Below, piece by piece: positions 1,285-32,994 of a DNA stretch of 57,818 nucleotides. The notes under the pieces are model-generated. The model had not been told where the DNA came from and did not search any database. It worked only from the letters and a program-made list of their open reading frames with translations. The DNA comes from an uncultured virus (IMG/VR IMGVR_UViG_3300021478_000018) (lineage: Duplodnaviria > Heunggongvirae > Uroviricota > Caudoviricetes), in IMG/VR virus record IMGVR_UViG_3300021478_000018; one strand, given 5' to 3'. A program made the position numbers and the translations under genes. Each line of letters begins with the position of its first letter. The stretch's first letter is position 1.

Positions 1285-1297
1285 GGAAAAAACTAAA

Positions 1298-1555
1298 ATG
1301 AACTTTGATACCGTTATTAAGTGTCCGATTTGCTCCGAGGAGGGCGAGAAGAGTCGTTTAACCGCCGTAGGCGGACGATCAACTAATTTGGAATGGGAGA
1401 AGTTTTTCGACGAAGAAGGGAAATACCATCAACACGATCCCAATACGGTAATCCATCTCTTCAAATGCAGTAACGGGCACGAGATCGAGGTACTCAGTAA
1501 AACCGGCTGTGGAGCTTGCGGGAAAGAGGACGAAGTAATAATAAAGGCTTCATAA
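1298..1555 (+). CDS. Small Cys/His-rich (putative Zn-binding) protein, possibly a fibre assembly factor
   Basis: 85 aa with CPIC, HQHD, CSNGH, CGAC; A-rich leader; lies between fibre genes. Confidence 0.6.
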   Translation: MNFDTVIKCPICSEEGEKSRLTAVGGRSTNLEWEKFFDEEGKYHQHDPNTVIHLFKCSNGHEIEVLSKTGCGACGKEDEVIIKAS

Positions 1556-1580
1556 AGAGCCCGTAGTTACGGGCTCGAAA

Positions 1581-3083: not shown

Positions 3084-3092
3084 AACTTTTTT

Positions 3093-4523: not shown

Positions 4524-4533
4524 AAGAAAATTT

Positions 4534-6048
4534 ATGGCAAACGCTCCAGGTCAAGCGGTTCCCGGTACGGTTGTCGTCGGCGGCTCGCTCGCTTCCCCAG
4601 GCGGCCCTCAAGGCACTACCGGCTCGATCGGTCCGATCGGGAATACCGGGCCGGTCGGCCCTCCCGGCCCCGCCGCCGCGACGACGACGGTTAGTAGCTT
4701 AACCGTTCCGAATACCGGAGCGACGACGACGGTTACGGTCGGCGACGCGAGCTGGGTAACGGTCGGGCAGATGATCTATATAGCGAACGCCGGGGGTAGC
4801 TCCTTAGCCGGGGCGCTCCAGGTAACGGCGAAGAACGGTAATATCCTTACCCTCCTTAACCCGGGAACCGTCTCGGCGATTCCCCCGGCGGATAATACCC
4901 AATCCGGGCTCCTTAACCAGGTTTCGGGGAATACCACCGACTTTGTCGACGGAACGAACCATTGCCAACCGTTAGCGCCGGTTATTTGGAGCGTACGGTC
5001 GCGCTCTTATAGCTCGATCGGGAACCCCAATTTCGAGGTCAACCAGAGGGTCTGGGCGATCGGGGCCCCCGTTCTTCCGGCGGTTAGCGGGGCTTTTTTA
5101 GTCGATCGCTGGTCGGTAGTCCGGAGCGCCGGGATCTCCGCTACTTTTACGATCGGACCGAGTAGCGGGACGATCGTCGCTCCCGGGAGTAAGTTTATGC
5201 TTGGGGGTCAGGTCCTCGTTATTCAGCTAGCTACCCAGCAAACGACTCTCGCCGCTAGCGATTATTTCCAAGTTCTACAATTCGTCGAAGGGTCGGCTTT
5301 CCGGGAGTTGCAACAAGACGTCCATTCGATCTCTCTTTTAGTTAATACTAATGCCGCGCTTAACTTTAGCGTTGCCATAAGAGACGCCGGACTTTCCCAA
5401 AGTCTAGTTATCCCGGTGAGCGTTCCGAGCGGGGTTAGTTTAATCGCGCTTCCGAACTTACCGGTCTGGCCTTCGGCGTTTTCTAATATTACCTCCGGCG
5501 CGGTCGGTTATTCTTTAGCTATTTGCCTAGCGGCGGGGAGCACCTTTACCGCTCCCGCGACCGGCTCCTGGACGAGCGGAAATTTCCTCGGCGCTCCCGG
5601 TATGGATAATTTCCTCGCCAAGCCGGTCGGAACGAATATCGCGCTCGCTTTCGTCCAGCACGAATCTGGACCGCAATGTACTTCGCTTATCGATAAGCCG
5701 TTCGCGTCGAATCTGAATGAATGCCTCCGCTATTACGCTAAGAGTTACGCTTACGTGACGGCGGCGGGGACGGGAGTCGCCGCCGGGGAGGCTTGGTTTA
5801 ATGCTAGTGGTACTACTACCTTTGCTTTCGGCTACGCGCCTTTTCCTTTGCCTATGGCAAAGAGCCCGACCGTTACGGCCTACAATTCTCAGACCGGCGC
5901 GATTAACGGCGCGCAGTCTTTTCCTAACGGAACTAATGTAACCGGGATTACCGTTTCGAATAATGAGAGATCGATCGGCTATATCTCCGGGACTTTAGTC
6001 TCCGGACAGATGTATCGCTTCCATTTTACCGCCGATACCGGCTGGTAG
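4534..6048 (+). CDS. Tail fibre / receptor-binding paralogue 2
   Basis: Same architecture as 1581..3083; ends ADTGW. Confidence 0.8.
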   Translation: MANAPGQAVPGTVVVGGSLASPGGPQGTTGSIGPIGNTGPVGPPGPAAATTTVSSLTVPNTGATTTVTVGDASWVTVGQMIYIANAGGSSLAGALQVTAKNGNILTLLNPGTVSAIPPADNTQSGLLNQVSGNTTDFVDGTNHCQPLAPVIWSVRSRSYSSIGNPNFEVNQRVWAIGAPVLPAVSGAFLVDRWSVVRSAGISATFTIGPSSGTIVAPGSKFMLGGQVLVIQLATQQTTLAASDYFQVLQFVEGSAFRELQQDVHSISLLVNTNAALNFSVAIRDAGLSQSLVIPVSVPSGVSLIALPNLPVWPSAFSNITSGAVGYSLAICLAAGSTFTAPATGSWTSGNFLGAPGMDNFLAKPVGTNIALAFVQHESGPQCTSLIDKPFASNLNECLRYYAKSYAYVTAAGTGVAAGEAWFNASGTTTFAFGYAPFPLPMAKSPTVTAYNSQTGAINGAQSFPNGTNVTGITVSNNERSIGYISGTLVSGQMYRFHFTADTGW

Positions 6049-6061
6049 GTAAATAATTTTT

Positions 6062-7576
6062 ATGCCCGCTCCAGGTCAAGCAGTTCCCGGTACGGTGGTC
6101 GCTCCCGGAGCCCTTACGTCTCCCGGCGGAGCTTCCGGTACGACGGGAGTCGTCGGTCCGTTAGGGCCGGTCGGTCCGGTCGGCCCGACCGGCCCTCCGG
6201 CGGTTACGACGACCTCTGCCGATTTTACCGTTCCGAATATCGGGGCGACGACGACGGTTACCGTTCTCGACGCGAGCTGGGTCGTCCTAGGGCAAATGGT
6301 CTACGTCGCTAACGCGGGCGGGGGGACCTCCGCCGGAGCGCTCCAGGTTACCGCTAAAGCGGGCAACCTTCTTACCCTTTTAAATCCGGCGACGATCTCG
6401 GCGATTCCTCCGGCGAGTAGTACCACGCCCGGGTTAATGAACGTACTAAGCGGTCTTTCGACCGATTACGTTGGAGGGGATAATGCTTGCCACGTTTTGT
6501 CGGTTGGGCCGGTACGCTCCTATAACGCGATCGGTAACCCCACCTTCGAGGTCGATCAGCGCCGGGTAGGTAGCGCGATTTCCCTCGGGCCGGGCGTTAA
6601 CCAGTCCAATTATATGGATCGTTGGAACGCCTCTTCGGGCGGCACCATGACCTACACCGTTCAACAGATCCCGGCTAACGTCCTACTTCCCGGGACTAAT
6701 TTCTTTATTACTTCGAAAATCTGCCGCTTTACCTTGACGACCGCCCAAGCGTCTTTAGGTGCAAGCGACTTTGCGTCGTTTCAGTCCATCGTTGAAGGAC
6801 AAGCCTTGCGGGAGCTTTTAGGCGACGTAACTTCGGTTTCGCTCCTAGTTCGATCGAGCGTCGCTAATGTAAAATTCGGTCTTTCTTTCTGGGATAGCCC
6901 AGGCAATTACGGGTTAGTAAAATTATGCACTTGCGGGGCGGCTAATACTTGGACTCTTATTCAATTCCCTAACCTTCCGATTTGGACGCCTAGCGGCACT
7001 TTTCCCGTAACCCCCGGCTCTTACGGGTATTCTTTGCAAATTGTCTTAGCGGCGGGCTCTAACCAGATGTTTCCCGCTAACGATGTTTGGGTAGCTACCC
7101 CTAAATATGGCGCGGTCGGTCAATCGAATTTCTCCGCCAATGCAGTCAATTCGACCTTCGATATTGCCTTCGTCCAGCACGAACCCGGGCCGGTTTGTAA
7201 TCCCTTAATCGATAAGCCGTTCAACCAGAATTATGATGAATGTCTCCGCTACTATCAGAAAAGTTATGAGTACAGTACGGCAATAGGAAATACTACCGGT
7301 GGAAATATGATTTTTGGGGTTATTTCGGCAAGTAACCTCAGTTACATTATCGGTCTTCCGAATTTCCTTAAACCCCTAGCTAAAACCGTAACCCCGACGG
7401 TTTATAACGCTAATACTGGGGCGGTTAATTCGGTTTACAATAGTTCGAGCGGGGCCTCGGCAACCACCGGTACGGTTTACGCCGGACAAAAAGGTCTTTC
7501 GTTAATCAATCTCGCTACGAATCAAGTAGCCGGGAATCTAATGTCCTTCGGATACACCGCCGATACCGGCTGGTAA
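6062..7576 (+). CDS. Tail fibre / receptor-binding paralogue 3
   Basis: Same architecture; ends ADTGW. Confidence 0.8.
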   Translation: MPAPGQAVPGTVVAPGALTSPGGASGTTGVVGPLGPVGPVGPTGPPAVTTTSADFTVPNIGATTTVTVLDASWVVLGQMVYVANAGGGTSAGALQVTAKAGNLLTLLNPATISAIPPASSTTPGLMNVLSGLSTDYVGGDNACHVLSVGPVRSYNAIGNPTFEVDQRRVGSAISLGPGVNQSNYMDRWNASSGGTMTYTVQQIPANVLLPGTNFFITSKICRFTLTTAQASLGASDFASFQSIVEGQALRELLGDVTSVSLLVRSSVANVKFGLSFWDSPGNYGLVKLCTCGAANTWTLIQFPNLPIWTPSGTFPVTPGSYGYSLQIVLAAGSNQMFPANDVWVATPKYGAVGQSNFSANAVNSTFDIAFVQHEPGPVCNPLIDKPFNQNYDECLRYYQKSYEYSTAIGNTTGGNMIFGVISASNLSYIIGLPNFLKPLAKTVTPTVYNANTGAVNSVYNSSSGASATTGTVYAGQKGLSLINLATNQVAGNLMSFGYTADTGW

Positions 7577-7588
7577 TTAAAAAATTTT

Positions 7589-9210
<1,622 letters not shown>

Positions 9211-9224
9211 GGTTAAAAAACGAA

Positions 9225-10634
9225 ATGCCGAATACTAAGATAGCGACGATTAAAGGTCCGGTTGGGCCGAAAGGGGATACCGGGGATACTGGGTCGACCG
9301 GAAATACTGGGCCGATTGGGGTTACCGGCGGGAAGGGTTTAACCGGGCCCGTCGGGCCGGTCGCGGTAAGCGCGGATACGAATAACGCCGCGACTTTAGG
9401 GAGCGATTCGAAGCTCCTCGTTCCGGCGGTTCCTTTTCCGATCGCCGACGCGACGAAAAACGGCCTCCTCCGGAAGGTTAGCGGGAATACGACCGATCTC
9501 GTCGACGGAACGAATCATACCCAGGATTTTACCGCCGCCCTTAAGCCGACGATCTGGAACGTCCGGCTTAATTCCTACAACGCGATCGGGAACCCGAATT
9601 TCGAGGTCGATCAGGCGAATATCGGCGCGCAGGTTACCGGCGGTCGGGTCGCCGATCGCTGGATCCTCGGGGTTAACGGGACGGCGGTCGTTACCGGGTA
9701 TCAGACTCCGTACGGTAGCGGGGGAGTCGTTATTCCGGGGACGAATTACGTTATTAGTTCCCAGACGGTCCGGCTTTTTATCTCGACGACGCAAGCCAGC
9801 TTTACCGGAAGTAACTACATCCAGTTTTATACCTGGTTAGAGGGGCCGTTCTGGCGGGAGCTTTCGCAAGGGGTTCATTCCCTTTCGATCCTCTGCCAAT
9901 GCTCGGTTTCCCCTTTTACCTTCGCGGTCGCTTTACGCGATATGGGAGCCAGTAGCCAGACGACCCGGAGCCTCGTCCTTCCCTTTACCTATAACGCCGG
10001 AGGAGGGGTTTTACAGCTTCTTACCGCCCCTAATTTACCCGCTTTCCCTTCCGGAAATTTTACGACCGCTCCCGGAGTAGCGAGTCTACAGCTTTCGATT
10101 ACCCCCGCGTGCGGGCCGACTTATAGCGCCCCGACTTCCGGCCCGACCTGGCAGAACGGGAATTTTATCGGCTTTACCGGGCAAGGGAATCTCGCCGCAA
10201 CCAGCGCGGCCTCTCTTTATATCGCTTTCGTCCAGCACGAACCGGGTCCCTATTGTACTCCGCTTATCGATCTTCCTTTCCCGAAAAATTTGCGATCCTG
10301 TCAGCGCTACTTCGCGAAGGGGGCGAGTTATAATGTTAAACTTCCGACGAGCGGTAATAATTATCGTTGGATCGGGAGCCATATCCAGGGTACCACCGCC
10401 GTCCGGTGCAATGTCCATTATCCGGTCGATATGGCGACGAGTCCGGTTGTTACTATGTACGATTACCTCGCGAATCTTAATCAGGTCTACCTAGAGACGA
10501 TCGGGAACGTCGCGATCGCTTCGGCGGGAGGCGACTCCGCTGGGATACTTTCGGTTGCCTTATCCGCCGCCCAGACGACTACCTATCAAGGGTCGGCGGT
10601 TCTAGGCCAGTGGAAGGCGGATACCGGCTGGTAG
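9225..10634 (+). CDS. Tail fibre / receptor-binding paralogue 5
   Basis: Start moved to ATG 9225 (MPNTKIATIKG) by comparison with paralogues; ends ADTGW. Confidence 0.8.
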   Translation: MPNTKIATIKGPVGPKGDTGDTGSTGNTGPIGVTGGKGLTGPVGPVAVSADTNNAATLGSDSKLLVPAVPFPIADATKNGLLRKVSGNTTDLVDGTNHTQDFTAALKPTIWNVRLNSYNAIGNPNFEVDQANIGAQVTGGRVADRWILGVNGTAVVTGYQTPYGSGGVVIPGTNYVISSQTVRLFISTTQASFTGSNYIQFYTWLEGPFWRELSQGVHSLSILCQCSVSPFTFAVALRDMGASSQTTRSLVLPFTYNAGGGVLQLLTAPNLPAFPSGNFTTAPGVASLQLSITPACGPTYSAPTSGPTWQNGNFIGFTGQGNLAATSAASLYIAFVQHEPGPYCTPLIDLPFPKNLRSCQRYFAKGASYNVKLPTSGNNYRWIGSHIQGTTAVRCNVHYPVDMATSPVVTMYDYLANLNQVYLETIGNVAIASAGGDSAGILSVALSAAQTTTYQGSAVLGQWKADTGW

Positions 10635-10651
10635 TAGTAGTAAAAATTTTT

Positions 10652-12055
10652 ATGCCGAATACGAAGATCGGGAACGTTCGGGGAGCGAAGGGGACGAAAG
10701 GGGCGACCGGCGGGACCGGGAATACCGGCTCGCAGGGGCCCCCGGGGAATACCGGCTTAACCGGAGCGACGGGGCTTCCCGGCCCCCGGGCGGTTAGCGC
10801 GGACGCGAATAATAAGGCGGTCCCCGGCTCGGATAGCCTCGTTTACGTCGCTACGCCGTCCGTCGCTTTAGCTAATCCTTCGGCGAACGGCCTTCTTCGG
10901 ACGGTTAGTGGGAATACGATCGACTATATCGACGGGACTAATAATAGTCAATCGAGCGCCGGGACCGTTTTACCGGTTATTTGGAACGTCCGGACGCGGA
11001 GTTATAACGCCCTTCACAACCCCAATTTCGAGATCGACCAAGGGAATACTACGACTAACTTTATTACGGCGGTACAACCCCGACAGTCGGCGGACCGCTG
11101 GATTCGGGGAAGCGGGGGAAGCGCCGTCGTCGGGACCCGGATCGTCCCGGTAAACTACGTTACCGCTCCGGGTTCCTCCGCCGTTATTACCCGGAGCTAC
11201 CTCGAAATTAACGTCTCGACCGCCCAGGCTAGCCTCGCCGCTACGGACCTTTACATTTTAAATCAAGTTATCGAAGGCGGTAACGCCCGGGCGATGATTG
11301 GGGACGTAACCTCTCTTTCGATCTTAGCGAATAGTAACGTACTCAACGCGAAATTTTCGCTCGCCATTCGCGACTCGACGAATAAAGTCTCCTACGTCGT
11401 TCCGGTAACTTTAACCGGGAATGTCTGGCAACTAATTACCTTTCCGAATATCCCGGTCTTTTCGAGCGCTAATAGCGCCTCTTATCCGCTTACCCCCGGA
11501 ACGATCGGTTATCAGGTCGCGATCGTCCTCGGGGCCGGATCGACCTATACGACTCCGGCGATAAATTCCTGGCAGAACGGGAACTTCCTCGCCGCTCCGG
11601 GGCAAAGCTTTCTCGGAGCGACCGGTTCTCTTCTAATCGCCTTTATCCAGCACGAGCCCGGCCCTTATTGTACTAGTCTAATCGATTGCCCCTTTCAAGA
11701 AAACCTTCTTAATTGCCAACGCTATTTCGCGAAATCGAACGGCTATACCCGGGCGACTCCGACGAATAATGATTGGCAGAATCTAGGCCAGTTTCTCGGG
11801 GCGACGAGCGCCCAGACGACGATCCGCCTAAGTATCGCTTTTCCGGTCGATATGGCGAAAGTTCCGACGATGACTCTTATCGATAACGCGACCAATCTCG
11901 GGACTCTCTACGTCGACGGGGTAGGGGGAAATTTAGCGGCTTCTCCCGGGCTCGTTACGACGAGCCATTGCGGACAGGCCAGCCTAGCGACCGGGGTAGC
12001 TTACCCCGCGAATGCGGCGGTCTTAGGACAATGGCGGGCGGATACCGGATGGTAG
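10652..12055 (+). CDS. Tail fibre / receptor-binding paralogue 6
   Basis: Start moved to ATG 10652 (MPNTKIGNVRG); ends ADTGW. Confidence 0.8.
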   Translation: MPNTKIGNVRGAKGTKGATGGTGNTGSQGPPGNTGLTGATGLPGPRAVSADANNKAVPGSDSLVYVATPSVALANPSANGLLRTVSGNTIDYIDGTNNSQSSAGTVLPVIWNVRTRSYNALHNPNFEIDQGNTTTNFITAVQPRQSADRWIRGSGGSAVVGTRIVPVNYVTAPGSSAVITRSYLEINVSTAQASLAATDLYILNQVIEGGNARAMIGDVTSLSILANSNVLNAKFSLAIRDSTNKVSYVVPVTLTGNVWQLITFPNIPVFSSANSASYPLTPGTIGYQVAIVLGAGSTYTTPAINSWQNGNFLAAPGQSFLGATGSLLIAFIQHEPGPYCTSLIDCPFQENLLNCQRYFAKSNGYTRATPTNNDWQNLGQFLGATSAQTTIRLSIAFPVDMAKVPTMTLIDNATNLGTLYVDGVGGNLAASPGLVTTSHCGQASLATGVAYPANAAVLGQWRADTGW

Positions 12056-12063
12056 TAGATTCT

Positions 12064-12399
12064 TTAAGCGTCGTAATCGCGGATCTGGTGCATGTGCTCT
12101 AAATCGAAGGTCCGGCTAAAACCGACCCGGTTCCGGGGAGCGAAAGACGGGAGCGGCGCTTTCCCGGATTTCCGGTAACGGTTCGCGATTACTTCGACTT
12201 TTTCTTCGGGCGCGATCGCGTAGACGATCCCTTCGATCGCGTTCCAGCGGCGCGGGTTCCGGGTTACTTTCCGGAAGAGAGCGCGGAAAACCGGCGGCTC
12301 GACGGTCGGATCGTAGATGTAGACGTCCGCTCCGGGCTTTAGCGCTTCGAGGGAATCGAAAGATTCTAACGGTTTCCAATCGTTAAAGGAAAGATCCAT
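12064..12399 (-). CDS. Hypothetical protein ending in a divergent tag (LEHMHQIRDYDA*)
   Basis: Start placed at MDLSFNDW, 9 nt downstream of CGAAATGTA (12409-12417, minus strand). Confidence 0.6.
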   Translation of the reverse strand: MDLSFNDWKPLESFDSLEALKPGADVYIYDPTVEPPVFRALFRKVTRNPRRWNAIEGIVYAIAPEEKVEVIANRYRKSGKAPLPSFAPRNRVGFSRTFDLEHMHQIRDYDA

Positions 12400-12443: not shown

Positions 12444-13451
12444 TTACTTTTTCGCCCCCTCGTCCCATCCGCTAATCGTATGCATATCCTCGATATTTAA
12501 GGTTTTAAACGCTTCGATTATTTTCTGGTACGAGAGGTCGAAAACCGCGACCCATTCCGGGAAGTTCGGCGCTAATTCCGCCGGGAAGGAGGCCGGGACC
12601 GTTTCGAACGGGTAGGCCTTCTTCGCTAACTCGTGCCATCCGCTCGCCTTATTAAAGAAGCCCGCCTTCATTAAGACGCCCCGCTTCTTACCGTAAAATT
12701 TCGAACTCGCGGCGAAGATAAATTCGAGTTCAAGCGTAAGCCGGATATTGCGCTGGTTGTATAAGGAGTCGCTCTTCCAGGCCAGTAGGATACAGTCGGC
12801 TCCCGGAACCGCGTTTACCATTATTTTCTCCCGTTCCCATTCCGGGATCTTTTTCTCGACCCGGTCGAAGGTAAGATCCGAAAGATCTAAGGTCGCGGTG
12901 GGCCGGGCGACCGCTTCGTCCCATCCCGAGATCGTATGCATCGTCTCTACGTCCGGAGTTGTATAAAATAGGCGGTGAAAGATCTGGCGATAGACTTCTT
13001 CCATTACCGGATAAGCTCCCTCCTTCGGTAAATTCCGGAGTGCCATCTTATCGATCGGTCGGGAGGCGTAGGCGAGGAGGTTTTTTATCGCCTCCGGAAG
13101 CGACGATTCCCGGTCGGTTAGTTCCCGGAGTTCGCCGTAGCTCTTTAGTCCTTTTCCCCGGGGAATATCGATTACAAACGCGATATCGTTTTCCCGGGTC
13201 GTATAATTTCCCATCCATCTCATTACGATCCCCGGGACCGCCTCCCCCGGCTTTAACGGGTAATAGTCGCTATCGAAACTAACGAGGAGCCGGTCGTAGT
13301 CCGGGTTGTTATCGCAGTAGAGATCCTTCTTCCCGGCGAGATAGTTTAAGGCGTTATAGAACCCGGCCTTATCGAATTTAAGGGGTTCTTTCCCGTGCCC
13401 GTAGGCGCGGATCGTTAGACTCTCAGTTATTCCGGACGAGGAGCTTTTCAT
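12444..13451 (-). CDS. Two-module protein with two MHTISGWDE tags
   Basis: DVETMHTISGWDE internally and IEDMHTISGWDEGAKK* at the end; overlaps the polyprotein stop by 29 nt. Confidence 0.75.
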   Translation of the reverse strand: MKSSSSGITESLTIRAYGHGKEPLKFDKAGFYNALNYLAGKKDLYCDNNPDYDRLLVSFDSDYYPLKPGEAVPGIVMRWMGNYTTRENDIAFVIDIPRGKGLKSYGELRELTDRESSLPEAIKNLLAYASRPIDKMALRNLPKEGAYPVMEEVYRQIFHRLFYTTPDVETMHTISGWDEAVARPTATLDLSDLTFDRVEKKIPEWEREKIMVNAVPGADCILLAWKSDSLYNQRNIRLTLELEFIFAASSKFYGKKRGVLMKAGFFNKASGWHELAKKAYPFETVPASFPAELAPNFPEWVAVFDLSYQKIIEAFKTLNIEDMHTISGWDEGAKK

Positions 13452-16400
13452 CGGCGTCGATAATCGTTTTACTTTCGTCCCATCCCGAGATCGTATGCAT
13501 CGTTTCGATATCCGGGGTCGGAGTAAAGAAACCGATTACCTCCCGGTAAAGAGCGTCGAGTTTTTGGAAGTGGAAGTTGTCGGTATCCTTAACCGCTTTG
13601 TAGGCGACGTGACTGTAGAAGTAGAGCTTACTCTTGCGAGCGGCCCCCGACGGGGAATAGAGAATAAGGTCTTTTCGAATATCGTCTAAAGTCGGGAAAA
13701 ATTTTTCCTTACTAGAGCCGAAAGACATGCCTATGGTGAAGGTTCCGTGCTTAATACCGACGATATAGTTCGCGTTAAATTTCCCCTCCCTAATCTCCAC
13801 TTCCACGGTTAGCATTAAATGGAAGACGTACTTCCGTCCGCCCTTTCCGGGAACGGTAATCTTCGCTCCGACCTCCCCTCCCGTATTCAACCAGACGGAA
13901 TACTTATACCCCCACGGCCACTCGTCGTAATCCATCTGGACCGCGTCGCCTTTCGTTTCCGCCCATTTCTTTAATTTTTCGAAATCCGCCGGAGTAAAAG
14001 TCGAGCGGGAATTTACGCTCTCGTCCCAACCGCTCATCGTATGCATCGTCTCGACGTCCGGGACGGAATGGAAAAGACGGCGGACGATCTCCGAGTAAAA
14101 GGCCGAGAGCGGCGGAAGAGCGAATTTAAATTTCCGGGCCCGATTCCGGTTAAGGAGAGCTTGTTGATCGATTAAGGTAGGGAGCGAATTAAGCGGCTCT
14201 TTCGCGGTTTTTCCGTAAAGCCGGAGCGACATCGTAAAGCCGTGAAAGAAGAAGTAGCCGGTTGTAAATTTATTATCGTAGAAGATGAGTTGTAGTTTCG
14301 CTTCCCCGGTATCGCGGGTTATCTCGACGAGATCTCCTTCGAAAGCGGAGACGGTAACGCCGTCGGCGGTCTTCGCCCAGGCGACGACGTCTTTAAGCGT
14401 TTCCGGATCGACCGGATAGCCTTCTTCCGGGACCGGGAGATATCTTAGGACCCGCCCTTTCGCCTCTTCGTAAGGGCCGGTACTCTCGGTATCGATAACG
14501 ACTAAGGCGGGGAAGGATCGCGCCCCGAGGATCCGTAAAGCGTCGAAACGATGGCCCCCTTCGAGAATGTAGGGGCCTTCCTTATCGATAATAACGATTA
14601 AAGGATCGATCTCTCCGGAGGCTTTAATCCGTTCGGCGAGATCCCGCGTCCGCTTTTCTTCCGAGACGGAATAAAAGGAGAGTTTCCCCATCGAGTCGAA
14701 GGAGGAAAAGGAGACTTCGCGGATCCCTTTTAAGATTTCGTACTCGTTTAGGGAGGAGCTAATCGATCCCGTATTCGCGATCTTCTCCCCGACGGTCCGT
14801 CCGTCGACTTCCGGCCCGGCTAACGGATATTCCGAATCGTAGTTTCCGGTCCTCTCGGTCATCCGCCGGATTATCGCCTCGTCCCAGCCCGAGATCGTAT
14901 GCATCGTCTCGATCTCCGGGACGTCCGAGGCTCCGACGTTCGCCGCCCGGACGTCGTCGACCGCGACCTCGCCGTCGTAACGCCGGATCGGAGTGAAATA
15001 TTTAACCTTCGCGAAGAGGGCCGTTCCCATATTCGTTTTCTTCCGGACCCGACCGAGAAAGAGAGCCGGGTTTAGCGTCCCGTCGTCCCCGTTCCTTACG
15101 ACGACGTTCGTCCCTCGTTTTAAGGCGTCGAAAGCTTTAAGACTTAGCGGCTTCCACTCCTCCTCCCGGGCTTCGTCCCAGCCCGAGATCGTATGCATCG
15201 TTTCGATCTCCGGAGCCTTAACCTTCCGCATATTCTCGGCTTCCGTCCAAACGAACGTCGTCTCCGCCCCGTCGCTTTTCCGGCTCGCGTGGACGACCGT
15301 AAGACCGCGCTCGGTTTGCTCGACCTTATCGACGATCCAGATATGCTTATTATCCCAGACGAGATACTGGAACTCGTCGCCCGGCGCTAGCCGGTTAAAC
15401 TCCTCCATCGTCATATCCCCTTCCGGAAAATCCTCGTCGTAATCGCGACCTTCGTCCCATCCGGAGATCGTATGCATCGTTTCGATTTCCGGAGGAGCTT
15501 TGACCTCCTTAAAAATTTTTAAGATCTCCCGGTACATCGTCTGGAATTGTTCGAATAGTAAATCCATTCCCGCCGGTAACCCGTAGATATGAGGGAGCTT
15601 CGCCGGTAAACGGGGCGCGGGTACGGTCGCCGTCTTCCATTCTCCTTCGATAAAAGTTCCGAGAAGGATAAACTTTTCCCCGACGTAAAAATGTAATTCT
15701 AACGTTTGTTGCTTATTGCGGCCCGGCGTTAACGACGGCTCTTTAAAAATTACCCAAGACCAACCCCCCGGAAACGACCTCGAATTGGTATTCGAGACGG
15801 GATTAAAGGAAGCTTCCCGCCCTTTCCGGCTTCCTTTCCAACGAGCGATTACCGCTTCTAACTCGGGTAACGCCGCTTCCCAGAGATCCTCGGAGCCTTT
15901 CGTAACGGCCTCGTCCCAGTTTGAAACCGTATGCATCGACGCGATCTCGGGCGTCGGCGGGAAGAGGCGGCGATGGATCTCGGCGTAGAGCCCGGAAAGT
16001 TTACCGAGACTCGGCTCTTTCTTCCGGAATTTACGGAGCGAGTTAATCGTTACCGGACGGATTACCCCGCGTTCTAGCTCGACGAGCGCGGCGTCGAAAT
16101 CGTACTGCTCCGGATGGATAATAAAAGAGACGACCGTTTCGACGAATTGCGGCGGAAGAGCCCCTAATCTTCCCGAAAAGGAACGGGAACTCGCCCCGGA
16201 TTTCGACCGGGGAATCGCTAGCTCGAACCGGCAATAGGTTTTTAACCGTACCCACGACATCGAAATCCAAGCTCCCGGAAAGAGGGTACTCGGGATTTTT
16301 ACCCGGAACGATTCGCCGCTTCGCCCGGCGACCCGGATCGTTTCGCTTTCGAGCGACTTCTCCGCCCATTCCAACGTCGTCTTAAAATCCCGCTCCTCCG

Positions 16401-18450
16401 CCGTTAACGGTTCGCCGGATCTTTCGAAGAGAAGGACGTCGTTCGCGATTATTCCTTCGACGCCGCTCTCGTCCCACCCCGATATCGTATGCATCGACCC
16501 GACCTCGGGCGTCTTAACCTCCTTAAAGAGGCGGACGACTTCGACCCAGAGTTCTTTCCCTTCCGCGAACCGCTCGTCGCCGGTTATCCCTTCGTAGGTT
16601 AACGGGAACCGGTCGGGAAGGATTATCGTCTCCTCGGTTAGGTATTCGGGCGGTTTATCGATCTCTAGCTCGACCCGGATTTCGGCGATCTTCGGGGAAT
16701 TAACCGGGAGCGGGGTTAAGGCGATATTAAAGCCCGGGTCGCCTTCGGCCCGGTAAAGGGTAATACGAGCCGACTGTTCATGGAAAACGATCCGGGGGTC
16801 AATAGCGGAAGCCCGGTGACCAATGCGGCGCCAGTCCCGGTTCGTCATCTCCGAGAAATCCTCGGTCGGGTAACGCCGCGTCCCTTCGTCCCAGTTACTA
16901 ACGGTATGCATAGATCCGATCTCGGGCGGAGGCCGTAAAATAGCGAGGAAACCTTCGTAAGCCACCTTCATCCGCCGGTAAACGCTTCCGGGGATATTCT
17001 CGATCTCCGAAGCGGCCCCGACGTTCGTAATGTAGTCCTCGAAATGATCCGGGGCGGAGGCGTAATCGGGGCCGGGATGACCTTTTTCGAAGATGAGGTG
17101 GATTTCCTCCTGCCCGAAATAGAGTTCCGCCCGGGCGGCGGTATCGGTCGCCCGCCCCCAGTCGAAGGTAAACTCGTACCAGGCGCTCTCCGTCTCCCCT
17201 TTCCGGAAAAGAGCTTCCGCGCTAAATTCTTTCGGGAAATTCCTCCGGGCCCAGTCCGCCGCTCTCTTCCGGTTTTCGAGCGGTACGGTCCAGGTTTCCG
17301 TTAACCTCCGGCGGCTCTCGTCCCAGCCCGAGATCGTATGCATCGTTTCGATCTCGGGGACCGAGGGTCCGGCTACTAGGAATTCGAACATCTTCTTTAG
17401 AAGCGGCGCATAAGGGATAAGATGTTTCGCGGTACGGGAAATCTGTCGTAATTCCCGCCGTAGTTTTCCTTTTTCGCTCGCGCTCGCGAAATAGGTTGGA
17501 TCTCCGGCGGCGGCTTTTAGTAAACTCGGAGCGATAGTTAGGAGATCCTCGAAATCGGGGTCCTTTATCGAATCGAGAATTTCGCTTCGCGAATCGAGTG
17601 GGCTGATCATCCAGCGTTCCCTATTCACATTCAGAGAGGCATAAAAATCGTACTGGAATTCTTTCGGTTGACCGTCGAATTGCTGTACGGAGACCGTTAG
17701 AATCCGGAGCCCGTCTAAGGAGAATAGGTTTTTATCGCTTAGATGTAGAAGGATCTCTAAAAGGACCGGATTCGTCCGGGAAGGGATAGAAATAGAGGTC
17801 TCGACCCCTAACCAAAGACCTCCGCCCCCGCCTTTTATTTTCCACTTCTTCGCTTCGGCGGCGGACTTTAATTCGGCGATATTCCTGGGTGTTATCTCCC
17901 AGTCCACGCTTTCCGTTAACGTCCGGCTCTCGTCCCATCCGCTAATCGTATGCATCGTCTCGACCTCGGGCGCGTTTCCGCCGATTATCGCGACGGTCGA
18001 ATTATAGGCCTCCCGCATCTTCGGATAATCGGGCTCGGTTTTCGGGATCCGGGCGAGGGCGTAGCTCTGGGTCTTATTTAACATATGTCCGAAAAGGAAA
18101 CCGTAGAAGTTCGGGACCGAGATCCTCTTAATTAAGGCGTCGAAATCGGTATCGCCCCGGGTTAAATGAATTTGGGCGTCGATCCGGGTAACGTTTCTCT
18201 TTACGCCTAAAGGGACGGAGGGGAGGGAGAGATGAAACTCGGTATGATCGTCGCCGAAACTAAACGTCATCCATACTTCCCGGTCGGGAAAGCGGCTCGC
18301 GAAGGTAAGTTCGACCGCTCCGGTTTTTCCTTCGAAGACCGGATTGAAGGTGTAGACCTTAAACCCTTTCCGGTTTAAAAGGTCGACCGCCCGGACGAGA
18401 TCTTCGGTACTCGCGACGACTAAGGGTTCCGACGGTTTAAATAAGGGCAT
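13423..18450 (-). CDS. 1675-aa modular polyprotein with ten MHT(I/V/M)S(G/N)WDE tags; includes a ParB/Srx-like domain
   Basis: Ten tags counted in the translation, separating dissimilar segments; IDPLIV..YILEGGHRFDAL ParB-like motif. Confidence 0.85.
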   Translation of the reverse strand: MPLFKPSEPLVVASTEDLVRAVDLLNRKGFKVYTFNPVFEGKTGAVELTFASRFPDREVWMTFSFGDDHTEFHLSLPSVPLGVKRNVTRIDAQIHLTRGDTDFDALIKRISVPNFYGFLFGHMLNKTQSYALARIPKTEPDYPKMREAYNSTVAIIGGNAPEVETMHTISGWDESRTLTESVDWEITPRNIAELKSAAEAKKWKIKGGGGGLWLGVETSISIPSRTNPVLLEILLHLSDKNLFSLDGLRILTVSVQQFDGQPKEFQYDFYASLNVNRERWMISPLDSRSEILDSIKDPDFEDLLTIAPSLLKAAAGDPTYFASASEKGKLRRELRQISRTAKHLIPYAPLLKKMFEFLVAGPSVPEIETMHTISGWDESRRRLTETWTVPLENRKRAADWARRNFPKEFSAEALFRKGETESAWYEFTFDWGRATDTAARAELYFGQEEIHLIFEKGHPGPDYASAPDHFEDYITNVGAASEIENIPGSVYRRMKVAYEGFLAILRPPPEIGSMHTVSNWDEGTRRYPTEDFSEMTNRDWRRIGHRASAIDPRIVFHEQSARITLYRAEGDPGFNIALTPLPVNSPKIAEIRVELEIDKPPEYLTEETIILPDRFPLTYEGITGDERFAEGKELWVEVVRLFKEVKTPEVGSMHTISGWDESGVEGIIANDVLLFERSGEPLTAEERDFKTTLEWAEKSLESETIRVAGRSGESFRVKIPSTLFPGAWISMSWVRLKTYCRFELAIPRSKSGASSRSFSGRLGALPPQFVETVVSFIIHPEQYDFDAALVELERGVIRPVTINSLRKFRKKEPSLGKLSGLYAEIHRRLFPPTPEIASMHTVSNWDEAVTKGSEDLWEAALPELEAVIARWKGSRKGREASFNPVSNTNSRSFPGGWSWVIFKEPSLTPGRNKQQTLELHFYVGEKFILLGTFIEGEWKTATVPAPRLPAKLPHIYGLPAGMDLLFEQFQTMYREILKIFKEVKAPPEIETMHTISGWDEGRDYDEDFPEGDMTMEEFNRLAPGDEFQYLVWDNKHIWIVDKVEQTERGLTVVHASRKSDGAETTFVWTEAENMRKVKAPEIETMHTISGWDEAREEEWKPLSLKAFDALKRGTNVVVRNGDDGTLNPALFLGRVRKKTNMGTALFAKVKYFTPIRRYDGEVAVDDVRAANVGASDVPEIETMHTISGWDEAIIRRMTERTGNYDSEYPLAGPEVDGRTVGEKIANTGSISSSLNEYEILKGIREVSFSSFDSMGKLSFYSVSEEKRTRDLAERIKASGEIDPLIVIIDKEGPYILEGGHRFDALRILGARSFPALVVIDTESTGPYEEAKGRVLRYLPVPEEGYPVDPETLKDVVAWAKTADGVTVSAFEGDLVEITRDTGEAKLQLIFYDNKFTTGYFFFHGFTMSLRLYGKTAKEPLNSLPTLIDQQALLNRNRARKFKFALPPLSAFYSEIVRRLFHSVPDVETMHTMSGWDESVNSRSTFTPADFEKLKKWAETKGDAVQMDYDEWPWGYKYSVWLNTGGEVGAKITVPGKGGRKYVFHLMLTVEVEIREGKFNANYIVGIKHGTFTIGMSFGSSKEKFFPTLDDIRKDLILYSPSGAARKSKLYFYSHVAYKAVKDTDNFHFQKLDALYREVIGFFTPTPDIETMHTISGWDESKTIIDADEKLLVRNN

Positions 18451-21272: not shown

Positions 21273-21941
21273 TTAGTCGTCCCAGGCCGAGATCTCGTGC
21301 ATCGTCTCGACGCCGTAAATCCGGCTTCTTAGCTTCGGTTTCGGCGACCGCTTCCCGGTCTCTTTAAGAAAGACGGCGGCGAGGGCGATCTCTTCTTCGA
21401 GCGACGGTTTTGCGGAGAGTTTCCTTCGTCTCTCGTCCCAGCCGCTTATCGTATGCATCGTTTCGACGCTCGCCGGAGGGTTAAGCGCGTCGACGAACCC
21501 GTTAAAGACCCGTTCCGCCTCCGGGTAGACCGGGCTCTTTAGGAAAGCTTCCCCGATCTTCGCTTCGGCGTCCCGAGAACTCCGGCCCCGTTTCGCGATC
21601 CCTTCGGCGAGGATTTTAAAGTAATCCGGGACGTTCGGGCGTAAGACCCGACCGTTAACCGGCGGCGCGGTCCGAGTCCCGGTAAAGAGCTTAATTTCGG
21701 CGTAAACCCCGGGCGGATCCTCTTGTTCCTCGAAGCTAATCGCGACGACCTTATTTTTAAACCGGGCCGTCCCCGTCGGGGCCGGTCCGCCCCGGGTAAA
21801 GGTCGCCTCGGCGAACTCGTAACCGCCGGTCTTCTTCGAGATCGTAAAAACGTCGAGGCCGGGCCGCTTCTGCCCCAAGAGCCACTTACAAGCCTCCGAA
21901 AAGAATTCCAGAGGAATAACGTTCCGTTCCAGCCCGGCCAT
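21273..21941 (-). CDS. Hypothetical protein with two tags
   Basis: SVETMHTISGWDE internally, GVETMHEISAWDD* at the C-terminus. Confidence 0.75.
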   Translation of the reverse strand: MAGLERNVIPLEFFSEACKWLLGQKRPGLDVFTISKKTGGYEFAEATFTRGGPAPTGTARFKNKVVAISFEEQEDPPGVYAEIKLFTGTRTAPPVNGRVLRPNVPDYFKILAEGIAKRGRSSRDAEAKIGEAFLKSPVYPEAERVFNGFVDALNPPASVETMHTISGWDERRRKLSAKPSLEEEIALAAVFLKETGKRSPKPKLRSRIYGVETMHEISAWDD

Positions 21942-27010: not shown

Positions 27011-27475
27011 TTAGGCGTCCCAGCCGGAGACTTCGTGCATCTCCTCTAGTTGTATAACGGGAGCGACTTGAACTCGTCGTGCACATTCTGGGCCGATCCC
27101 TTTCGTAATCGAGTCGGGGTGGGTTAGGCGGCGGCCGCAGCATCCGCAAGCGCCTTCGTGCTGGACCTGGAGGTCGTAAGGAAGGGTCTTTAACTTTACG
27201 AAATAGTTAAAGGCCTTCGCGCAGGTCGATTCGGCGGTAAAGGAGCTTTTCTTCGTTACCCGGAAACCCTCTTTCGTAAGGATCCCGAGGTAGTTGAAGC
27301 TCTGGTCCTCGCCGCCGAGGACGGAGACGAAGTAAAGTTCGTCGTTATCCTTAGCGCGTTTTACTTTGTAGGTGTAGTGCTTATCGGTTTTCCGAGAAGT
27401 AAGAGTTAAGACGGCCTTACCCGATTGCGCGTAGGCGAGGGCGTCGGCGATATTCGTGAAGCGGTGTTCGTTCAT
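27011..27475 (-). CDS. DUF6011-like Zn-binding protein with C-terminal tag (EEMHEVSGWDA*)
   Basis: CGCCGRRLTHPDSITKGIGPECA; start MNEHRF lies 6 nt after CGAAATGTA. Confidence 0.75.
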   Translation of the reverse strand: MNEHRFTNIADALAYAQSGKAVLTLTSRKTDKHYTYKVKRAKDNDELYFVSVLGGEDQSFNYLGILTKEGFRVTKKSSFTAESTCAKAFNYFVKLKTLPYDLQVQHEGACGCCGRRLTHPDSITKGIGPECARRVQVAPVIQLEEMHEVSGWDA

Positions 27476-27570
27476 ACCCCTTACATTTCGTGAGGGTTTC
27501 ATGGATTATTCTATCCATGTATGAATCGTCGGAACGAAAACGAAAAAGTTTAGCTGGACGATTGGAATCT

Positions 27571-29937: not shown

Positions 29938-30453
29938 ATGAAACGAAAATACACGCGCCGTTCGAAAGCGCTCGTTAATCTAAGTTGGATCGACGAGACG
30001 GCTCAGACGGAGATTTTTAACCTTTGGGACCGGGAAGAGAAAGAAACTCGTCCGCCCGGCCCGATCCTTACTAAGGGCTACGATAATTATCCGGAGTTAA
30101 AACGGTATTCTTTCGGGCGCGAAACCCAACGCTACCACGGAACCGGCCTTTCCTATAACTATGTAAGCCTTACCGTCGATCTTCATTCGAAATATCTCCG
30201 GGTCCGGGCTACCAACTACGCGAGCGGATTGCGGAACGAAATAGCGCTTCCGTTAAACGCGCTTCCGCGAGACCTGGTCGCTTTTTACGATCTTCTTAAG
30301 GAACGGGCTTCCGCCGCTTCCGCCGATACCCGCGTCTTCTCGTTTAACCGGAAGGCAATCGAGGAGACCTGGGAATCGCTACTCGGAGCGATCGCGCTTC
30401 TTCCCCGGTACGAGATCGACCGGATGCACGAAATTTCGGGATGGGACGCGTAA
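29938..30453 (+). CDS. Hypothetical protein with C-terminal tag (IDRMHEISGWDA*)
   Basis: Tag immediately before the stop codon. Confidence 0.75.
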   Translation: MKRKYTRRSKALVNLSWIDETAQTEIFNLWDREEKETRPPGPILTKGYDNYPELKRYSFGRETQRYHGTGLSYNYVSLTVDLHSKYLRVRATNYASGLRNEIALPLNALPRDLVAFYDLLKERASAASADTRVFSFNRKAIEETWESLLGAIALLPRYEIDRMHEISGWDA

Positions 30454-30454
30454 T

Positions 30455-30733: not shown

Positions 30734-30735
30734 AG

Positions 30736-31443: not shown

Positions 31444-31460
31444 TCCGTTCTTAAGAAGAA

Positions 31461-32915: not shown

Positions 32916-32994
32916 GCTGGACGTTCCGAATTTACCGCTTAAGCCGAATGTTTGTTGCGGGTACCCGGTCGACGCCGGGGAAAGCTTCGCTACC

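What the first reader, a model, noticed from the sequence alone, without database searches (positions are those of the whole stretch)
12444..18450. Polyprotein of unrelated modules, each closed by a conserved ETMHTISGWDE tag
Seen: the 1675-aa ORF has ten copies of P(E/D)(I/V)(ET/GS/AS)MHT(I/V/M)S(G/N)WDE and the next ORF has two more. The segments between tags (about 90-280 aa) are mostly dissimilar, though many end in a helix like LYxEIxRxLF just before the tag. DNA copies differ at synonymous sites, so selection acts on the peptide. Inference: a cargo polyprotein cut into separate effectors that each keep a C-terminal tag used for capsid loading, ejection, localisation or binding a host factor. 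I do not recognise the motif from any described family.
Basis: partly seen in the sequence, partly recalled or inferred. Interest (0 to 1): 0.9.

Follow-up and report, generated by a model that had tools for sequence, protein, structure and literature searches.

The report
Cut-and-address tag on phage proteins
An uncultured giant soil phage strings many unrelated small proteins into long chains separated by one conserved 14-residue peptide that also ends several single proteins, and the sequence pattern suggests the chains are cut after each peptide so that every piece keeps the same address label.

Summary
The tag (consensus P-E/D-I/V-E-T-M-H-T/E-I/V-S-G-W-D-x) occurs 16 times in the window against 0.00 expected, plus one degenerate copy. 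Ten copies are in the 1675-aa ORF, two in the next ORF, two in a 222-aa ORF, and single copies sit at the exact C-terminus of three or four single-domain proteins.

Profile searches of 1.8 and 5.8 billion proteins find it only in a small clade of soil phage sequences. Two flavours were scanned for in 185,579 cellular genomes, with no hit.

The key new result is a positional rule. Of 89 tags followed by more protein, 88 end in Glu, mostly followed by Ala or Ser. All 25 tags at a protein end stop exactly one residue after W/Y-D, and that residue is usually Ala or Ser. This reads as cleavage after Glu that exposes a defined C-terminus.

A probable second piece of the same 254.6-kb genome encodes a T4 gp21-type prohead protease (cuts after Glu), with a tag polyprotein between it and the capsid gene. 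Best reading: a C-terminal, CTS-like cut-and-load signal for head cargo. Cutting and packaging are unmeasured.

Earlier notes of this scan describe analogous systems with other tags on other phage DNA.

The parts
13423..18450 (-). 1675-aa polyprotein of 10 modules (174, 204, 144, 139, 186, 153, 93, 98, 286, 182 aa), each ending in the tag, plus a 16-aa tail
17929..17955 (-). tag core 1 (MHTISGWDE, followed by S)
17317..17343 (-). tag core 2 (MHTISGWDE, followed by S)
16885..16911 (-). tag core 3 (MHTVSNWDE, followed by G)
16468..16494 (-). tag core 4 (MHTISGWDE, followed by S)
15910..15936 (-). tag core 5 (MHTVSNWDE, followed by A)
15451..15477 (-). tag core 6 (MHTISGWDE, followed by G)
15172..15198 (-). 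tag core 7 (MHTISGWDE, followed by A)
14878..14904 (-). tag core 8 (MHTISGWDE, followed by A)
14020..14046 (-). tag core 9 (MHTMSGWDE, followed by S)
13474..13500 (-). tag core 10 (MHTISGWDE, followed by S and a 16-aa tail)
14485..14661 (-). weak ParB N-terminal-like region inside module 9 (aa 1264-1322)
   Evidence: Pfam ParB_N E 0.019, below the family cut-off; phrog_1033 E 4e-4; PDB ParB family chains E 1e-3
12444..13451 (-). 335-aa two-module ORF. Tag cores at 12915-12941 (followed by A) and 12459-12485 (followed by GAKK-stop). It overlaps the 1675-aa ORF by 29 nt in the +1 frame
12064..12399 (-). 111-aa small beta (SH3-like, by eye) protein ending in a degenerate terminal tag MHQIRDYDA-stop (12067-12093)
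   Evidence: hhalign to module 8, 78% probability
21273..21941 (-). 222-aa ORF: a 170-aa module with an internal tag (21432-21458, followed by R), then a 52-aa mini-module with a terminal tag MHEISAWDD-stop (21276-21302)
27011..27475 (-). DUF6011 protein (about 154 aa from the likely start) with a terminal tag MHEVSGWDA-stop (27014-27040). The family models end before the tag
   Evidence: PF19474 E 3.4e-13, residues 113-144; phrog_20259 E 2e-36, residues 14-144 of 163; orthologues keep the tag
29938..30453 (+). 171-aa protein of no known family with a terminal tag MHEISGWDA-stop (30424-30450)

Best explanation
The tag is a portable C-terminal cut-and-address peptide of one clade of giant T4-like soil phages.

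Shown:
- The tag is a linear peptide of about 14 residues. It follows a Pro-rich linker and is attached to many unrelated domains.
- When protein continues behind it, it ends in Glu followed by a small residue.
- When it ends a protein, the stop codon comes exactly one residue after W/Y-D, and that residue is free to be Ala, Ser, Gly or Asp.

Inferred:
- Polyproteins are cut after the Glu of every internal tag. This releases modules that all carry the same C-terminus, ...M-H-x-I-S-G-W-D-x-COOH, as the single-domain tagged proteins do.
- The cutter is most likely the phage's own T4 gp21-type (Peptidase_S77) prohead protease, which is Glu-specific.
- Cutting would therefore happen inside the prohead.
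- The tag would double as the signal that brings these fast-evolving accessory modules into the head core, to be delivered with the DNA.

Functionally this would be a mirror image of the T4 capsid targeting sequence, combined with the polyvalent-protein idea.
For: 1. Positional rule. The set is 47 non-redundant tagged proteins from the window, its probable sister fragment G001, a related phage and database hits. Among internal tags, 88 of 89 end in Glu, after dropping one obvious chance match of 90; the exception ends in Ala. The next residue is Ala 35, Ser 34, Gly 7, Thr 6, Arg 4, Asn 2, Glu 1. Terminal tags stop exactly one residue after [WY]D in 25 of 25 cases, with last residue Ala 14, Ser 7, Glu 2, Asp 1, Gly 1. 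The 25 fall into about 12 orthologous families by my reading. Even tails of 2-7 residues (GAKK, SK, STK, AKEKRK, SLLAKYN) follow a Glu.

2. A matching protease. G001 encodes a Peptidase_S77 prohead protease fused to an acidic scaffold-like region (PF03420 E 2.6e-15; phrog_207 E 1.4e-30). T4 gp21 cuts after Glu at L/I-X-E, first seen at a Glu-Ala bond. The phiKZ, 201phi2-1 and SPN3US homologues also cut only after Glu (passages read in PMC9026906, and PMC5694885).

3. Gene position. A tag polyprotein lies between the major capsid gene and the protease-scaffold gene in G001 (59603-60985) and in the related contig L020 (3155-4963).

4. A canonical [LI]-x-E site lies within 9 residues behind the tag at 24 of 82 junctions. 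The rate in other 9-residue windows of the same proteins is 6.5%.

5. Fast turnover typical of host-conflict cargo. Capsid protein is 94.7% identical and protease-scaffold 75.9% identical between G001 and L020. The polyprotein between them is only 23.6% identical over 259 aa. Modules are re-sorted between polyproteins of related phages.

6. Precedent. The T4 CTS is a short portable signal that ends in the gp21 Glu site. It loads unrelated and foreign proteins, and Asp in place of that Glu blocks cutting but not targeting (PMC9026906 passages).

7. The tag is not part of the module fold.
Against: - No cleavage or packaging has been measured.
- The window itself holds no head, portal or protease gene. 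The link to G001 rests on a shared longest-contig length of 254,649 bp, like composition and a shared upstream motif.
- Known S77 sites need only 3 residues, with L/I or S/A at P3. Here P3 is Trp or Tyr, and 9-14 residues are conserved, so something other than the protease may read the tag.
- Terminal tags lack Glu, so a Glu pocket is not what reads them.
- If a free C-terminus is required for reading, cutting must come before loading, which is awkward for a protease that is active only inside proheads.
- Tag genes lie on the strand opposite to the neighbouring structural genes.
- Three tagged single genes carry the CGAAATGTA-N6-ATG element. That element also precedes about 20 small genes, and none of the genes with a recognised structural function. 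This could mark a non-late expression class.
- The [LI]-x-E enrichment and the tallies include orthologues, so they are not independent counts. The database hits were found with a profile whose last column favours Glu.
Confidence: 0.45

Rival explanations
1. Cytoplasmic processing and a non-capsid destination. The chains are cut after Glu by another enzyme, such as the phage zincin-like protein or a host protease. The exposed C-terminal tag then docks all tagged proteins onto one hub that is not the head: a host machine, or a phage-built complex or compartment.
For: - Terminal tags need an exact C-terminal register but no Glu, which fits a reader of free C-termini distinct from the protease.
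- G001 encodes a single HExxH protein (30404-31966, AHEAMH; weak DUF2201_N hit, E 9.5e-5) next to a MoxR-like AAA ATPase.
- A relative's polyprotein, P0055, ends in an untagged module with AHELNH.
- Tagged proteins include a bL12 C-terminal-domain protein (PF00542 E 2.7e-10) and a DUF6011 protein. These have no obvious role in a capsid.
- Three tagged single genes share the CGAAATGTA element with small genes of no recognised structural function.
Against: - Glu-specific cytoplasmic endopeptidases are uncommon, and metallopeptidases are usually defined by the residue after the cut (from general knowledge, not from a call).
- The zincin hit is below Pfam's cut-off.
- A tag polyprotein keeps its place between the capsid and prohead-protease genes in two phages.
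- Two tag flavours scanned as DNA patterns gave 0 hits in 185,579 cellular species genomes. So no host protein with those exact forms of the tag was seen.
Confidence: 0.25
2. No cleavage. The 1675-aa protein stays whole as beads on a string, and the tag is a repeated docking or self-association motif between domains. The Glu and small residue are simply part of the linker.
For: - No direct evidence of cutting exists.
- Some polyvalent proteins and the N4 virion RNA polymerase are delivered unprocessed (PMC5512222 passages).
- One internal tag, in P0057, ends in Ala and is followed by Ser.
Against: - This does not explain why Glu is near-invariant only when residues follow (88 of 89 against 2 of 25).
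- It does not explain why terminal tags always stop at the same register (25 of 25), nor why even 2-7-residue tails follow Glu.
- Modules move singly between polyproteins and single genes.
Confidence: 0.12
3. The tag is mainly a DNA-level recombination joint. A conserved stretch of about 30-40 nt lets modules be shuffled, duplicated and lost, and the peptide is a passenger.
For: - Stretches of tag DNA are identical between unlinked loci: 35 nt at 100% between window 21432-21466 and G001 60231-60265.
- Modules are re-sorted between related phages.
- Contigs of soil runs break or cross-map at tags.
Against: - Synonymous differences are frequent and Ser uses both codon families. Pairwise DNA identity of 12 tag copies falls as low as 60% while the peptide is kept.
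- The tag peptide is kept in distant flavours, MHTMRGYDE and MHTMWGYNE, with different DNA.
- The terminal-register and Glu rules are peptide-level rules.
- This is most likely a side benefit, not the main function.
Confidence: 0.05
4. The tag is a structural strand or helix of a repeated fold.
For: Several modules look by eye like helix, sheet, helix. The one confident model has that layout.
Against: - The tag follows complete, unrelated known domains. The DUF6011 models end at residue 144 of 163. The bL12 C-terminal-domain match ends at residue 116 of 133, at model position 66 of 67.
- In the model the tag comes after a Pro-rich linker, and pLDDT falls to 67 and then 53, against 84-91 in the three preceding 10-residue blocks, which hold the last helix.
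- Modules are not detectably related to each other.
Confidence: 0.03

Closest known systems
T4 capsid targeting sequence (CTS) of internal proteins IPI-III and Alt
   Same: Both are short portable peptides on otherwise unrelated, fast-evolving accessory proteins. Both end in the Glu after which a gp21-type prohead protease cuts. In T4, targeting and cutting are separable (PMC9026906 passages). The phage here (G001 fragment) has a gp21-family protease.
   Different: The CTS is N-terminal, 10-20 residues long, is removed from the cargo, and uses L/I-X-E. This tag is C-terminal and would stay on the cargo.
Polyvalent proteins of phages and conjugative elements (Iyer et al. 2017, PMC5512222; abstract and passages read)
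   Same: One polypeptide carries 2-15 disparate domains in a phage. It is predicted to be delivered with the DNA and processed into units, and ParB-like domains occur in it. Here there are 10 modules, one weakly ParB-like. A relative carries a weak methyltransferase match (Methyltransf_23, 25.0 bits, below the 27 cut-off) and an HExxH module.
   Different: In the passages shown by my term search no conserved inter-module peptide is described. 'Linker' occurs 0 times in that paper's main text. Processing there is ascribed to embedded zincin-like or assemblin-like peptidase domains. The window protein has no HExxH and no recognised peptidase. Most modules here match no family.
Head and ejection proteins of giant phages (phiKZ, 201phi2-1, SPN3US) processed at S/A-X-E
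   Same: Giant myophages in which many internal head proteins are cut after Glu by a gp21 homologue. Their propeptides are thought to target them to the prohead (PMC5694885 passages).
   Different: Those are separate genes with long N-terminal propeptides and a 3-residue motif. There are no polyproteins and no shared C-terminal tag.
Encapsulin cargo-loading peptides (recalled from general knowledge; no call)
   Same: A short conserved C-terminal peptide behind a flexible linker directs unrelated cargo to the inside of an HK97-fold shell.
   Different: Encapsulin peptides are not cut sites, have other sequences, and are not used inside polyproteins. Binding of this tag to the capsid protein was not tested.
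Polyproteins of RNA viruses with 3C-like proteases (Glu/Gln then a small residue; specificity recalled; the analogy is drawn in PMC5512222)
   Same: Unrelated units lie in one chain, separated by a conserved site with Glu before and a small residue after the cut. Each product keeps the upstream half of the site.
   Different: Those polyproteins carry their own protease, and the conserved site is not reused as the C-terminus of separately encoded proteins.

Membership tests
Polyvalent proteins (Iyer et al. 2017) | 2-15 distinct domains in one polypeptide of a phage or conjugative element | tested here: met
   10 mutually dissimilar modules in 1675 aa. Phage context: tail fibres, endolysin and replication genes.
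Polyvalent proteins (Iyer et al. 2017) | Domains drawn from the conflict repertoire (DdrB-like ParB, MPTase, ART, methylase and others) | tested here: inconclusive
   Only a weak ParB_N-like region (Pfam E 0.019, below cut-off; phrog_1033 E 4e-4; PDB ParB E 1e-3). The other 9 modules match nothing. One related module modelled at pLDDT 81 has no clear structural relative: best Foldseek E 1.2e-3 with TM 0.34, best VIA Z 6.0.
Polyvalent proteins (Iyer et al. 2017) | Embedded processing peptidase (common in the family, not universal) | tested here: not met
   No HExxH in any window ORF and no peptidase family hit in the polyprotein. A relative, P0055, has an AHELNH module.
T4-type capsid targeting sequence | N-terminal propeptide of 10-20 residues that is removed from the cargo | tested here: not met
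   The tag is at the C-terminus of every module and of 25 of 25 tag-terminated proteins.
T4-type capsid targeting sequence | Ends in a Glu that is the cut site of a gp21-family protease encoded by the same phage | tested here: inconclusive
   88 of 89 internal tags end in Glu. An S77 protease is present in G001, which is only inferred to be the same genome. Cleavage itself is not testable with these tools.
T4-type capsid targeting sequence | Directs attached proteins into the prohead | not testable with these tools
   Only gene position supports it: a tag polyprotein lies between the capsid and protease genes in two phages.
Repeated fold with the tag as a structural element | The tag is an integral secondary-structure element of a homologous repeat unit | tested here: not met
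   Modules are unrelated. The tag lies outside complete DUF6011 and bL12 C-terminal-domain matches. In the model the tag is a lower-confidence appendage.
Encapsulin-type cargo-loading peptide | C-terminal conserved peptide behind a flexible linker that binds the shell protein interior | not tested
   The layout fits: a Pro-rich linker then the tag. No tag-to-capsid-protein test was run.

The most novel reading that the evidence does not exclude
The tag is a virus-encoded protein-sorting code. A Glu-specific cut exposes a defined C-terminus (...M-H-x-I-S-G-W-D-x-COOH). One receptor reads that C-terminus and gathers more than 30 different protein modules at one destination, most likely the head interior for injection. 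The modules include a ribosomal bL12-like domain, a ParB-like domain and many orphan folds. The set of delivered proteins could then be read directly from the genome sequence, and new cargo could be plugged in by recombination at the tag.
Probability: 0.35. Interest if true: 0.85.

Novelty: new variant of a known kind. Interest (0 to 1): 0.72.

Why it matters
If the rule holds, the packaged or co-localised accessory proteome of an uncultured 250-kb phage can be predicted from sequence alone. That would be at least 17 tags in this window, at least 8 in G001 and 5 in P0003.

It would add a C-terminal, cargo-retained counterpart to the N-terminal T4 CTS.

It would show how polyvalent proteins can be processed without an embedded peptidase.

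It would offer a compact tag for loading foreign proteins into phage heads.

The Glu-only-when-followed rule gives a sharp test that needs no culture: search for peptides ending in ...GWDE, or co-express the protease with a two-module substrate.

The very fast turnover of modules beside 95%-conserved capsid genes marks them as candidates for host-conflict functions.

Tried and rejected
- Complex prediction of the S77 protease domain (32-row alignment A3, residues 1-215) with window polyprotein residues 955-1012: no verdict, score 0.00 in both runs. The partner's own fold was uncertain and controls were not run. This says nothing either way.
- AlphaFold of the 335-aa ORF without an alignment: mean pLDDT 34, unusable.
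- Fold searches with the good module model (Foldseek PDB, Foldseek BFVD, VIA-align wide): no clear relative. Best results were E 1.2e-3 with TM 0.34, and Z 6.0.
- ESM Atlas look-up of module 10: no usable hit.
- tblastn of the 1675-aa protein against 50,697 phage records: no match.
- PDB sequence search with P0055: nothing.
- PHROGs on polyproteins, on the conserved 71-aa tail and on tagged singles: only one match with E under 0.01, phrog_14016 of unknown function on P0055 residues 760-874 (E 4.6e-7); two weaker rows (E 0.014, 0.041) and nothing for the tail or the tagged singles.
- Search for stand-alone homologues of the 71-aa tail, 39-125 aa only: no candidate.
- T4 late-promoter consensus TATAAATA: 0 in the window, 1 in G001. 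It is not used here.
- The window's whole genome is not held, and metagenome contigs could not be fetched whole. The remaining part of the 254.6-kb genome (about 107 kb if window and G001 do not overlap) was therefore not seen.
- Sequencing runs: 6 soil DNA runs hold part of the stretch and no RNA holder is listed. The contigs laid show no insertion or deletion at the 13423-13451 ORF overlap. One joint, 14889 to 15194 between two tags, has only 24 letters on its shorter side and is probably a repeat artefact.
- A 2A-like ribosome-skipping reading was considered because D-[VI]-E precedes the tag. It was rejected because there is no N-P-G-P, and terminal tags would have no purpose.
- Internal translation starts at the invariant Met were considered. 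They were rejected because the tag ends single-domain proteins whose known domains lie upstream of it.
- Lineage-specific tag flavours as evidence of co-evolution with one reader: dropped. W and Y forms, and S and R forms, coexist in one genome, and the genomes of the database proteins are unknown.
- Literal tag strings in 8.4 million papers and preprints: 0. A search for polyprotein, prohead protease and ejection proteins found no paper describing such a tag (listing only).

Full report
**What is in the window.** ORF 13423-18450(-) encodes 1675 aa, and the next ORF downstream, 12444-13451(-), encodes 335 aa. It also finds four further copies: two in ORF 21273-21941(-), one at the end of ORF 27011-27502(-) and one at the end of ORF 29938-30453(+). 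The DNA pattern for the tag core matches 16 times. No match appeared in any of 100 dinucleotide-preserving shuffles. ORF 12064-12399(-) ends in MHQIRDYDA-stop. Its database orthologues end in MHE[IVL][ST]G[WY]D[AGS]-stop, so this is a 17th, decayed copy.

**The modules.** They are 93-286 aa long. With tags removed, none of the 12 modules of the two ORFs hits another at phmmer E<1e-3. In 120 single-sequence hhalign pairs among 16 window modules, only module 8 against the 111-aa protein passes 50% probability, at 78%. Codon use in the tag varies at synonymous sites, including both Ser codon families.

**The tag is portable, not part of a fold.**
- In ORF 27011-27502 the DUF6011 match (E 3.4e-13) and phrog_20259 (E 2e-36) end at residue 144 of 163, and the tag follows.
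- In G001 a 133-aa protein matches the ribosomal L7/L12 C-terminal domain over residues 61-116, model positions 12-66 of 67 (E 2.7e-10). It then carries the tag at residues 125-133.
- Module 9 has a weak ParB-like stretch.
- A seven-sequence alignment of a module type from the head-locus polyprotein gave a confident AlphaFold model, pLDDT 81.3 and pTM 0.75. The layout is helix 13-31, a sheet over residues 37-109, a long helix 129-150, a Pro-rich linker, then the tag. pLDDT falls over the tag to 67 and then 53.
The model has no clear structural relative.

**Where the window comes from.**
- The window carries collagen-like tail-fibre paralogues, an M15 endolysin, a fused SbcCD, a primase-like gene, a helicase and a thymidylate-synthase homologue. 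It has no capsid, portal, terminase or protease gene.
- Scanning IMG/VR for the tag found one 89-kb contig, G001, with eight tagged ORFs bearing nine tags.
- G001 has tail sheath and tube, UvsX-like recombinase, family-B polymerase, a T4-type major head protein (phrog_138) and a Peptidase_S77 prohead protease fused to a long acidic region.
- The window's own polyprotein and proteins encoded by G001 are all recorded with a longest contig of 254,649 bp.
- The two pieces share no DNA except tag-length matches. They have 55.7% and 56.6% G+C, a tetranucleotide correlation of 0.96, and the same upstream element.
- I therefore treat them as parts of one genome of about 255 kb from a T4-like giant phage. 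This is an inference, not a demonstration.

**How widespread the tag is.**
- A profile of 42 tag segments found 21 proteins (E<=10) among the 8000 candidates scored from 5.8 billion. It found 27 proteins (E<=1e-3) among 1.84 billion representatives that HMMER read in full.
- The hits include further polyproteins of 1578 aa (10 tags by pattern; 11 matched stretches), 1460 aa (7), 1016 aa (7), 910 aa (4) and 846 aa (5).
- Their tag flavours include MHTMRGYDE, MH.[MFI]SGYDE and MHTMW.YNE.
- A metagenome scan found a close relative on three contigs, L020, L022 and L028.
- Two tag flavours scanned as DNA patterns gave no hit in 185,579 cellular species genomes.
- No paper in the library contains the tag strings.

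**The positional rule.** This is the main new result. I tallied 47 non-redundant tagged proteins.
- There are 89 real internal tags; one chance match was dropped.
- Of these, 88 end in Glu. The exception, the first tag of P0057, ends in Ala.
- The next residue is Ala 35, Ser 34, Gly 7, Thr 6, Arg 4, Asn 2, Glu 1.
- All 25 tags at a protein end stop exactly one residue after [WY]D. That residue is Ala 14, Ser 7, Glu 2, Asp 1, Gly 1.
- One more terminal tag, MHEFSGWDA-stop in G001, was seen but was not in the tally.
- Whenever anything follows the tag, even 2-7 residues, the tag ends in Glu.

Glu is therefore required only when a peptide bond follows, and the functional end point is fixed. The simplest reading is cleavage after Glu that leaves every module with the same C-terminus as the single tagged proteins.

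Caveats: orthologues inflate the counts. By my reading there are about 12 independent families of terminal tags. The database hits were also selected with a profile whose last column favours Glu.

**Who cuts.**
- T4 gp21 cuts after Glu at L/I-X-E, first seen at a Glu-Ala bond. Its homologues in phiKZ, 201phi2-1 and SPN3US also cut only after Glu (passages in PMC9026906; PMC5694885).
- G001 encodes such a protease (PF03420, 56.9 bits against a cut-off of 27).
- A two-module tag polyprotein (59603-60985, + strand) sits between the capsid gene (57997-59424, -) and the protease-scaffold gene (61462-63522, -).
- The related contig L020 has the same arrangement. Its capsid protein is 94.7% identical and its protease-scaffold 75.9% identical, but the polyprotein is only 23.6% identical over 259 aa.
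- A canonical [LI]-x-E lies within nine residues behind the tag at 24 of 82 junctions. The background rate in the same proteins is 6.5%.
- The head-locus polyprotein starts with a decayed tag...EDLRLLNGYDE followed by A. It ends in a conserved untagged tail of 60-70 aa, kept in five proteins. That tail may be what ties it to the head core; this is speculative.
- A second candidate protease exists: the only HExxH protein of window plus G001 (G001 30404-31966), next to a MoxR-like ATPase.

**Evolution.** Modules behave as cassettes. The 990-aa polyprotein of L028 combines relatives of P0003 modules 1, 5 and 3, of window module 10 (46% identity) and of the G001 head-locus modules. Tag DNA can be identical over 35 nt between unlinked loci. 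The tag may therefore also serve as a recombination joint. The peptide-level rules show that this is not its main role.

**Mechanism proposed.** Shown: the anatomy, the portability, the positional rule, the gene positions and the restricted distribution. Inferred: polyproteins enter the prohead core, the S77 protease cuts after each tag Glu, and the modules are carried in the head and delivered with the DNA. This is like T4 internal proteins, whose CTS is a portable targeting-plus-cleavage signal on fast-evolving cargo, and like polyvalent proteins.

Open points against this reading:
- P3 is Trp or Tyr, and far more residues are conserved than known S77 enzymes need.
- Terminal tags lack Glu.
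- The tag genes are on the opposite strand from the neighbouring structural genes.
- Three tagged single genes carry the CGAAATGTA-N6-ATG element, which is found before small genes of no recognised structural function.

I put 0.45 on the full head-cargo model. I put about 0.7 on cleavage after Glu by some protease, and above 0.9 on the tag being a functional portable peptide.

**Novelty.** The kind of system is known: cargo signals read by prohead proteases, and polyvalent proteins. This form was not found in print: C-terminal, retained on the cargo, delimiting up to 10-11 modules, and also ending separate proteins with a fixed register (passages of PMC5512222). Earlier notes of this scan describe analogous tag-delimited phage polyproteins with other motifs on other genomes. 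None concerns this tag or this genome.

Noticed in passing
window 29924, 42146, 46325, 46570, 56012, 56237 (+); 12409, 25659, 27482, 29146, 29912 (-); 15 more in G001: The conserved element (C)GAAATGTA, usually followed by a G-rich hexamer and an ATG 14-18 nt downstream, occurs 26 times in window plus G001. It precedes small genes, most of unknown function (an HNH-like and a ligase-like gene among them), including three tagged single genes. It was not seen before capsid, sheath or fibre genes. It may be a phage promoter or translation-control site of one expression class.
   Followed up: partly
window 13423-13451: The 335-aa ORF starts inside the end of the 1675-aa ORF, in the +1 frame. In a relative (P0065) the homologous module follows a tag in the same frame. 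The window phage therefore seems to have split an ancestral chain of about 12 modules. A contig from a soil run spans the site without an insertion or deletion.
   Followed up: partly
window 25-12055 (+): An array of about ten tail-fibre-like genes. At least nine share Gly-X-Y collagen-like N-termini, and seven of them end in ADTGW or ADTAW. The array runs head-on into the polyprotein operon, with 9 nt between the convergent stops.
   Followed up: no
G001 82439-82840 (L017:2439-2840, -): A phage-encoded 133-aa protein with a ribosomal L7/L12 C-terminal domain (PF00542 E 2.7e-10). No bL12 N-terminal domain was detected, and the terminal tag MHEVSAWDA is appended.
   Followed up: partly
G001 59603-60985 and relatives P0056, P0058, P0061, P0064, P0071: The polyprotein beside the capsid gene begins with a decayed tag (EDLRLLNGYDE followed by A). 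It ends in a conserved untagged tail (...SEPFSMWSNTDKYVPVxSEEDRELLYG...) that has no family match and no stand-alone homologue of 39-125 aa.
   Followed up: partly
all tags of window and G001: Within this phage, internal tags read MHT (codons CAT ACG) in all 16 in the window and G001 (17 of 18 counting the five tags of P0003, one of which reads MHE). Terminal tags read MHE (codons CAC GAR) in 9 of 10. In the related AP72 contigs most internal tags read MHE. The cause is unexplained.
   Followed up: no
G001 30404-31966 and 31990-33750 (-): A 520-aa protein with AHEAMH (weak DUF2201_N metallopeptidase hit) lies next to a MoxR-like AAA_5 ATPase. It is a possible second protease system of the phage.
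   Followed up: partly
G001 2140-3216 (+); window 50787-52022 (+): A 5-hmdU DNA kinase domain (PF18723 E 2.4e-84) together with a thymidylate-synthase homologue suggests hypermodified thymidine in the phage DNA.
   Followed up: no
P0056 residues 221-232, P0057 residues 632-646: Pfam DUF3679 gives weak sub-threshold matches (21.1 and 16.8 bits, cut-off 22) that fall exactly on tag sequences. Whether that family holds a similar motif was not examined.
   Followed up: no
window 33263-36298 (+): SbcD-like and SbcC-like parts are fused in one 1011-aa ORF (phrog_100 and phrog_77).
   Followed up: no
P0054 module 2, P0066, P0067 last module: Some relatives' modules consist of repeated helical units with the motif ...YA..V...RWPE.EP....
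   Followed up: no
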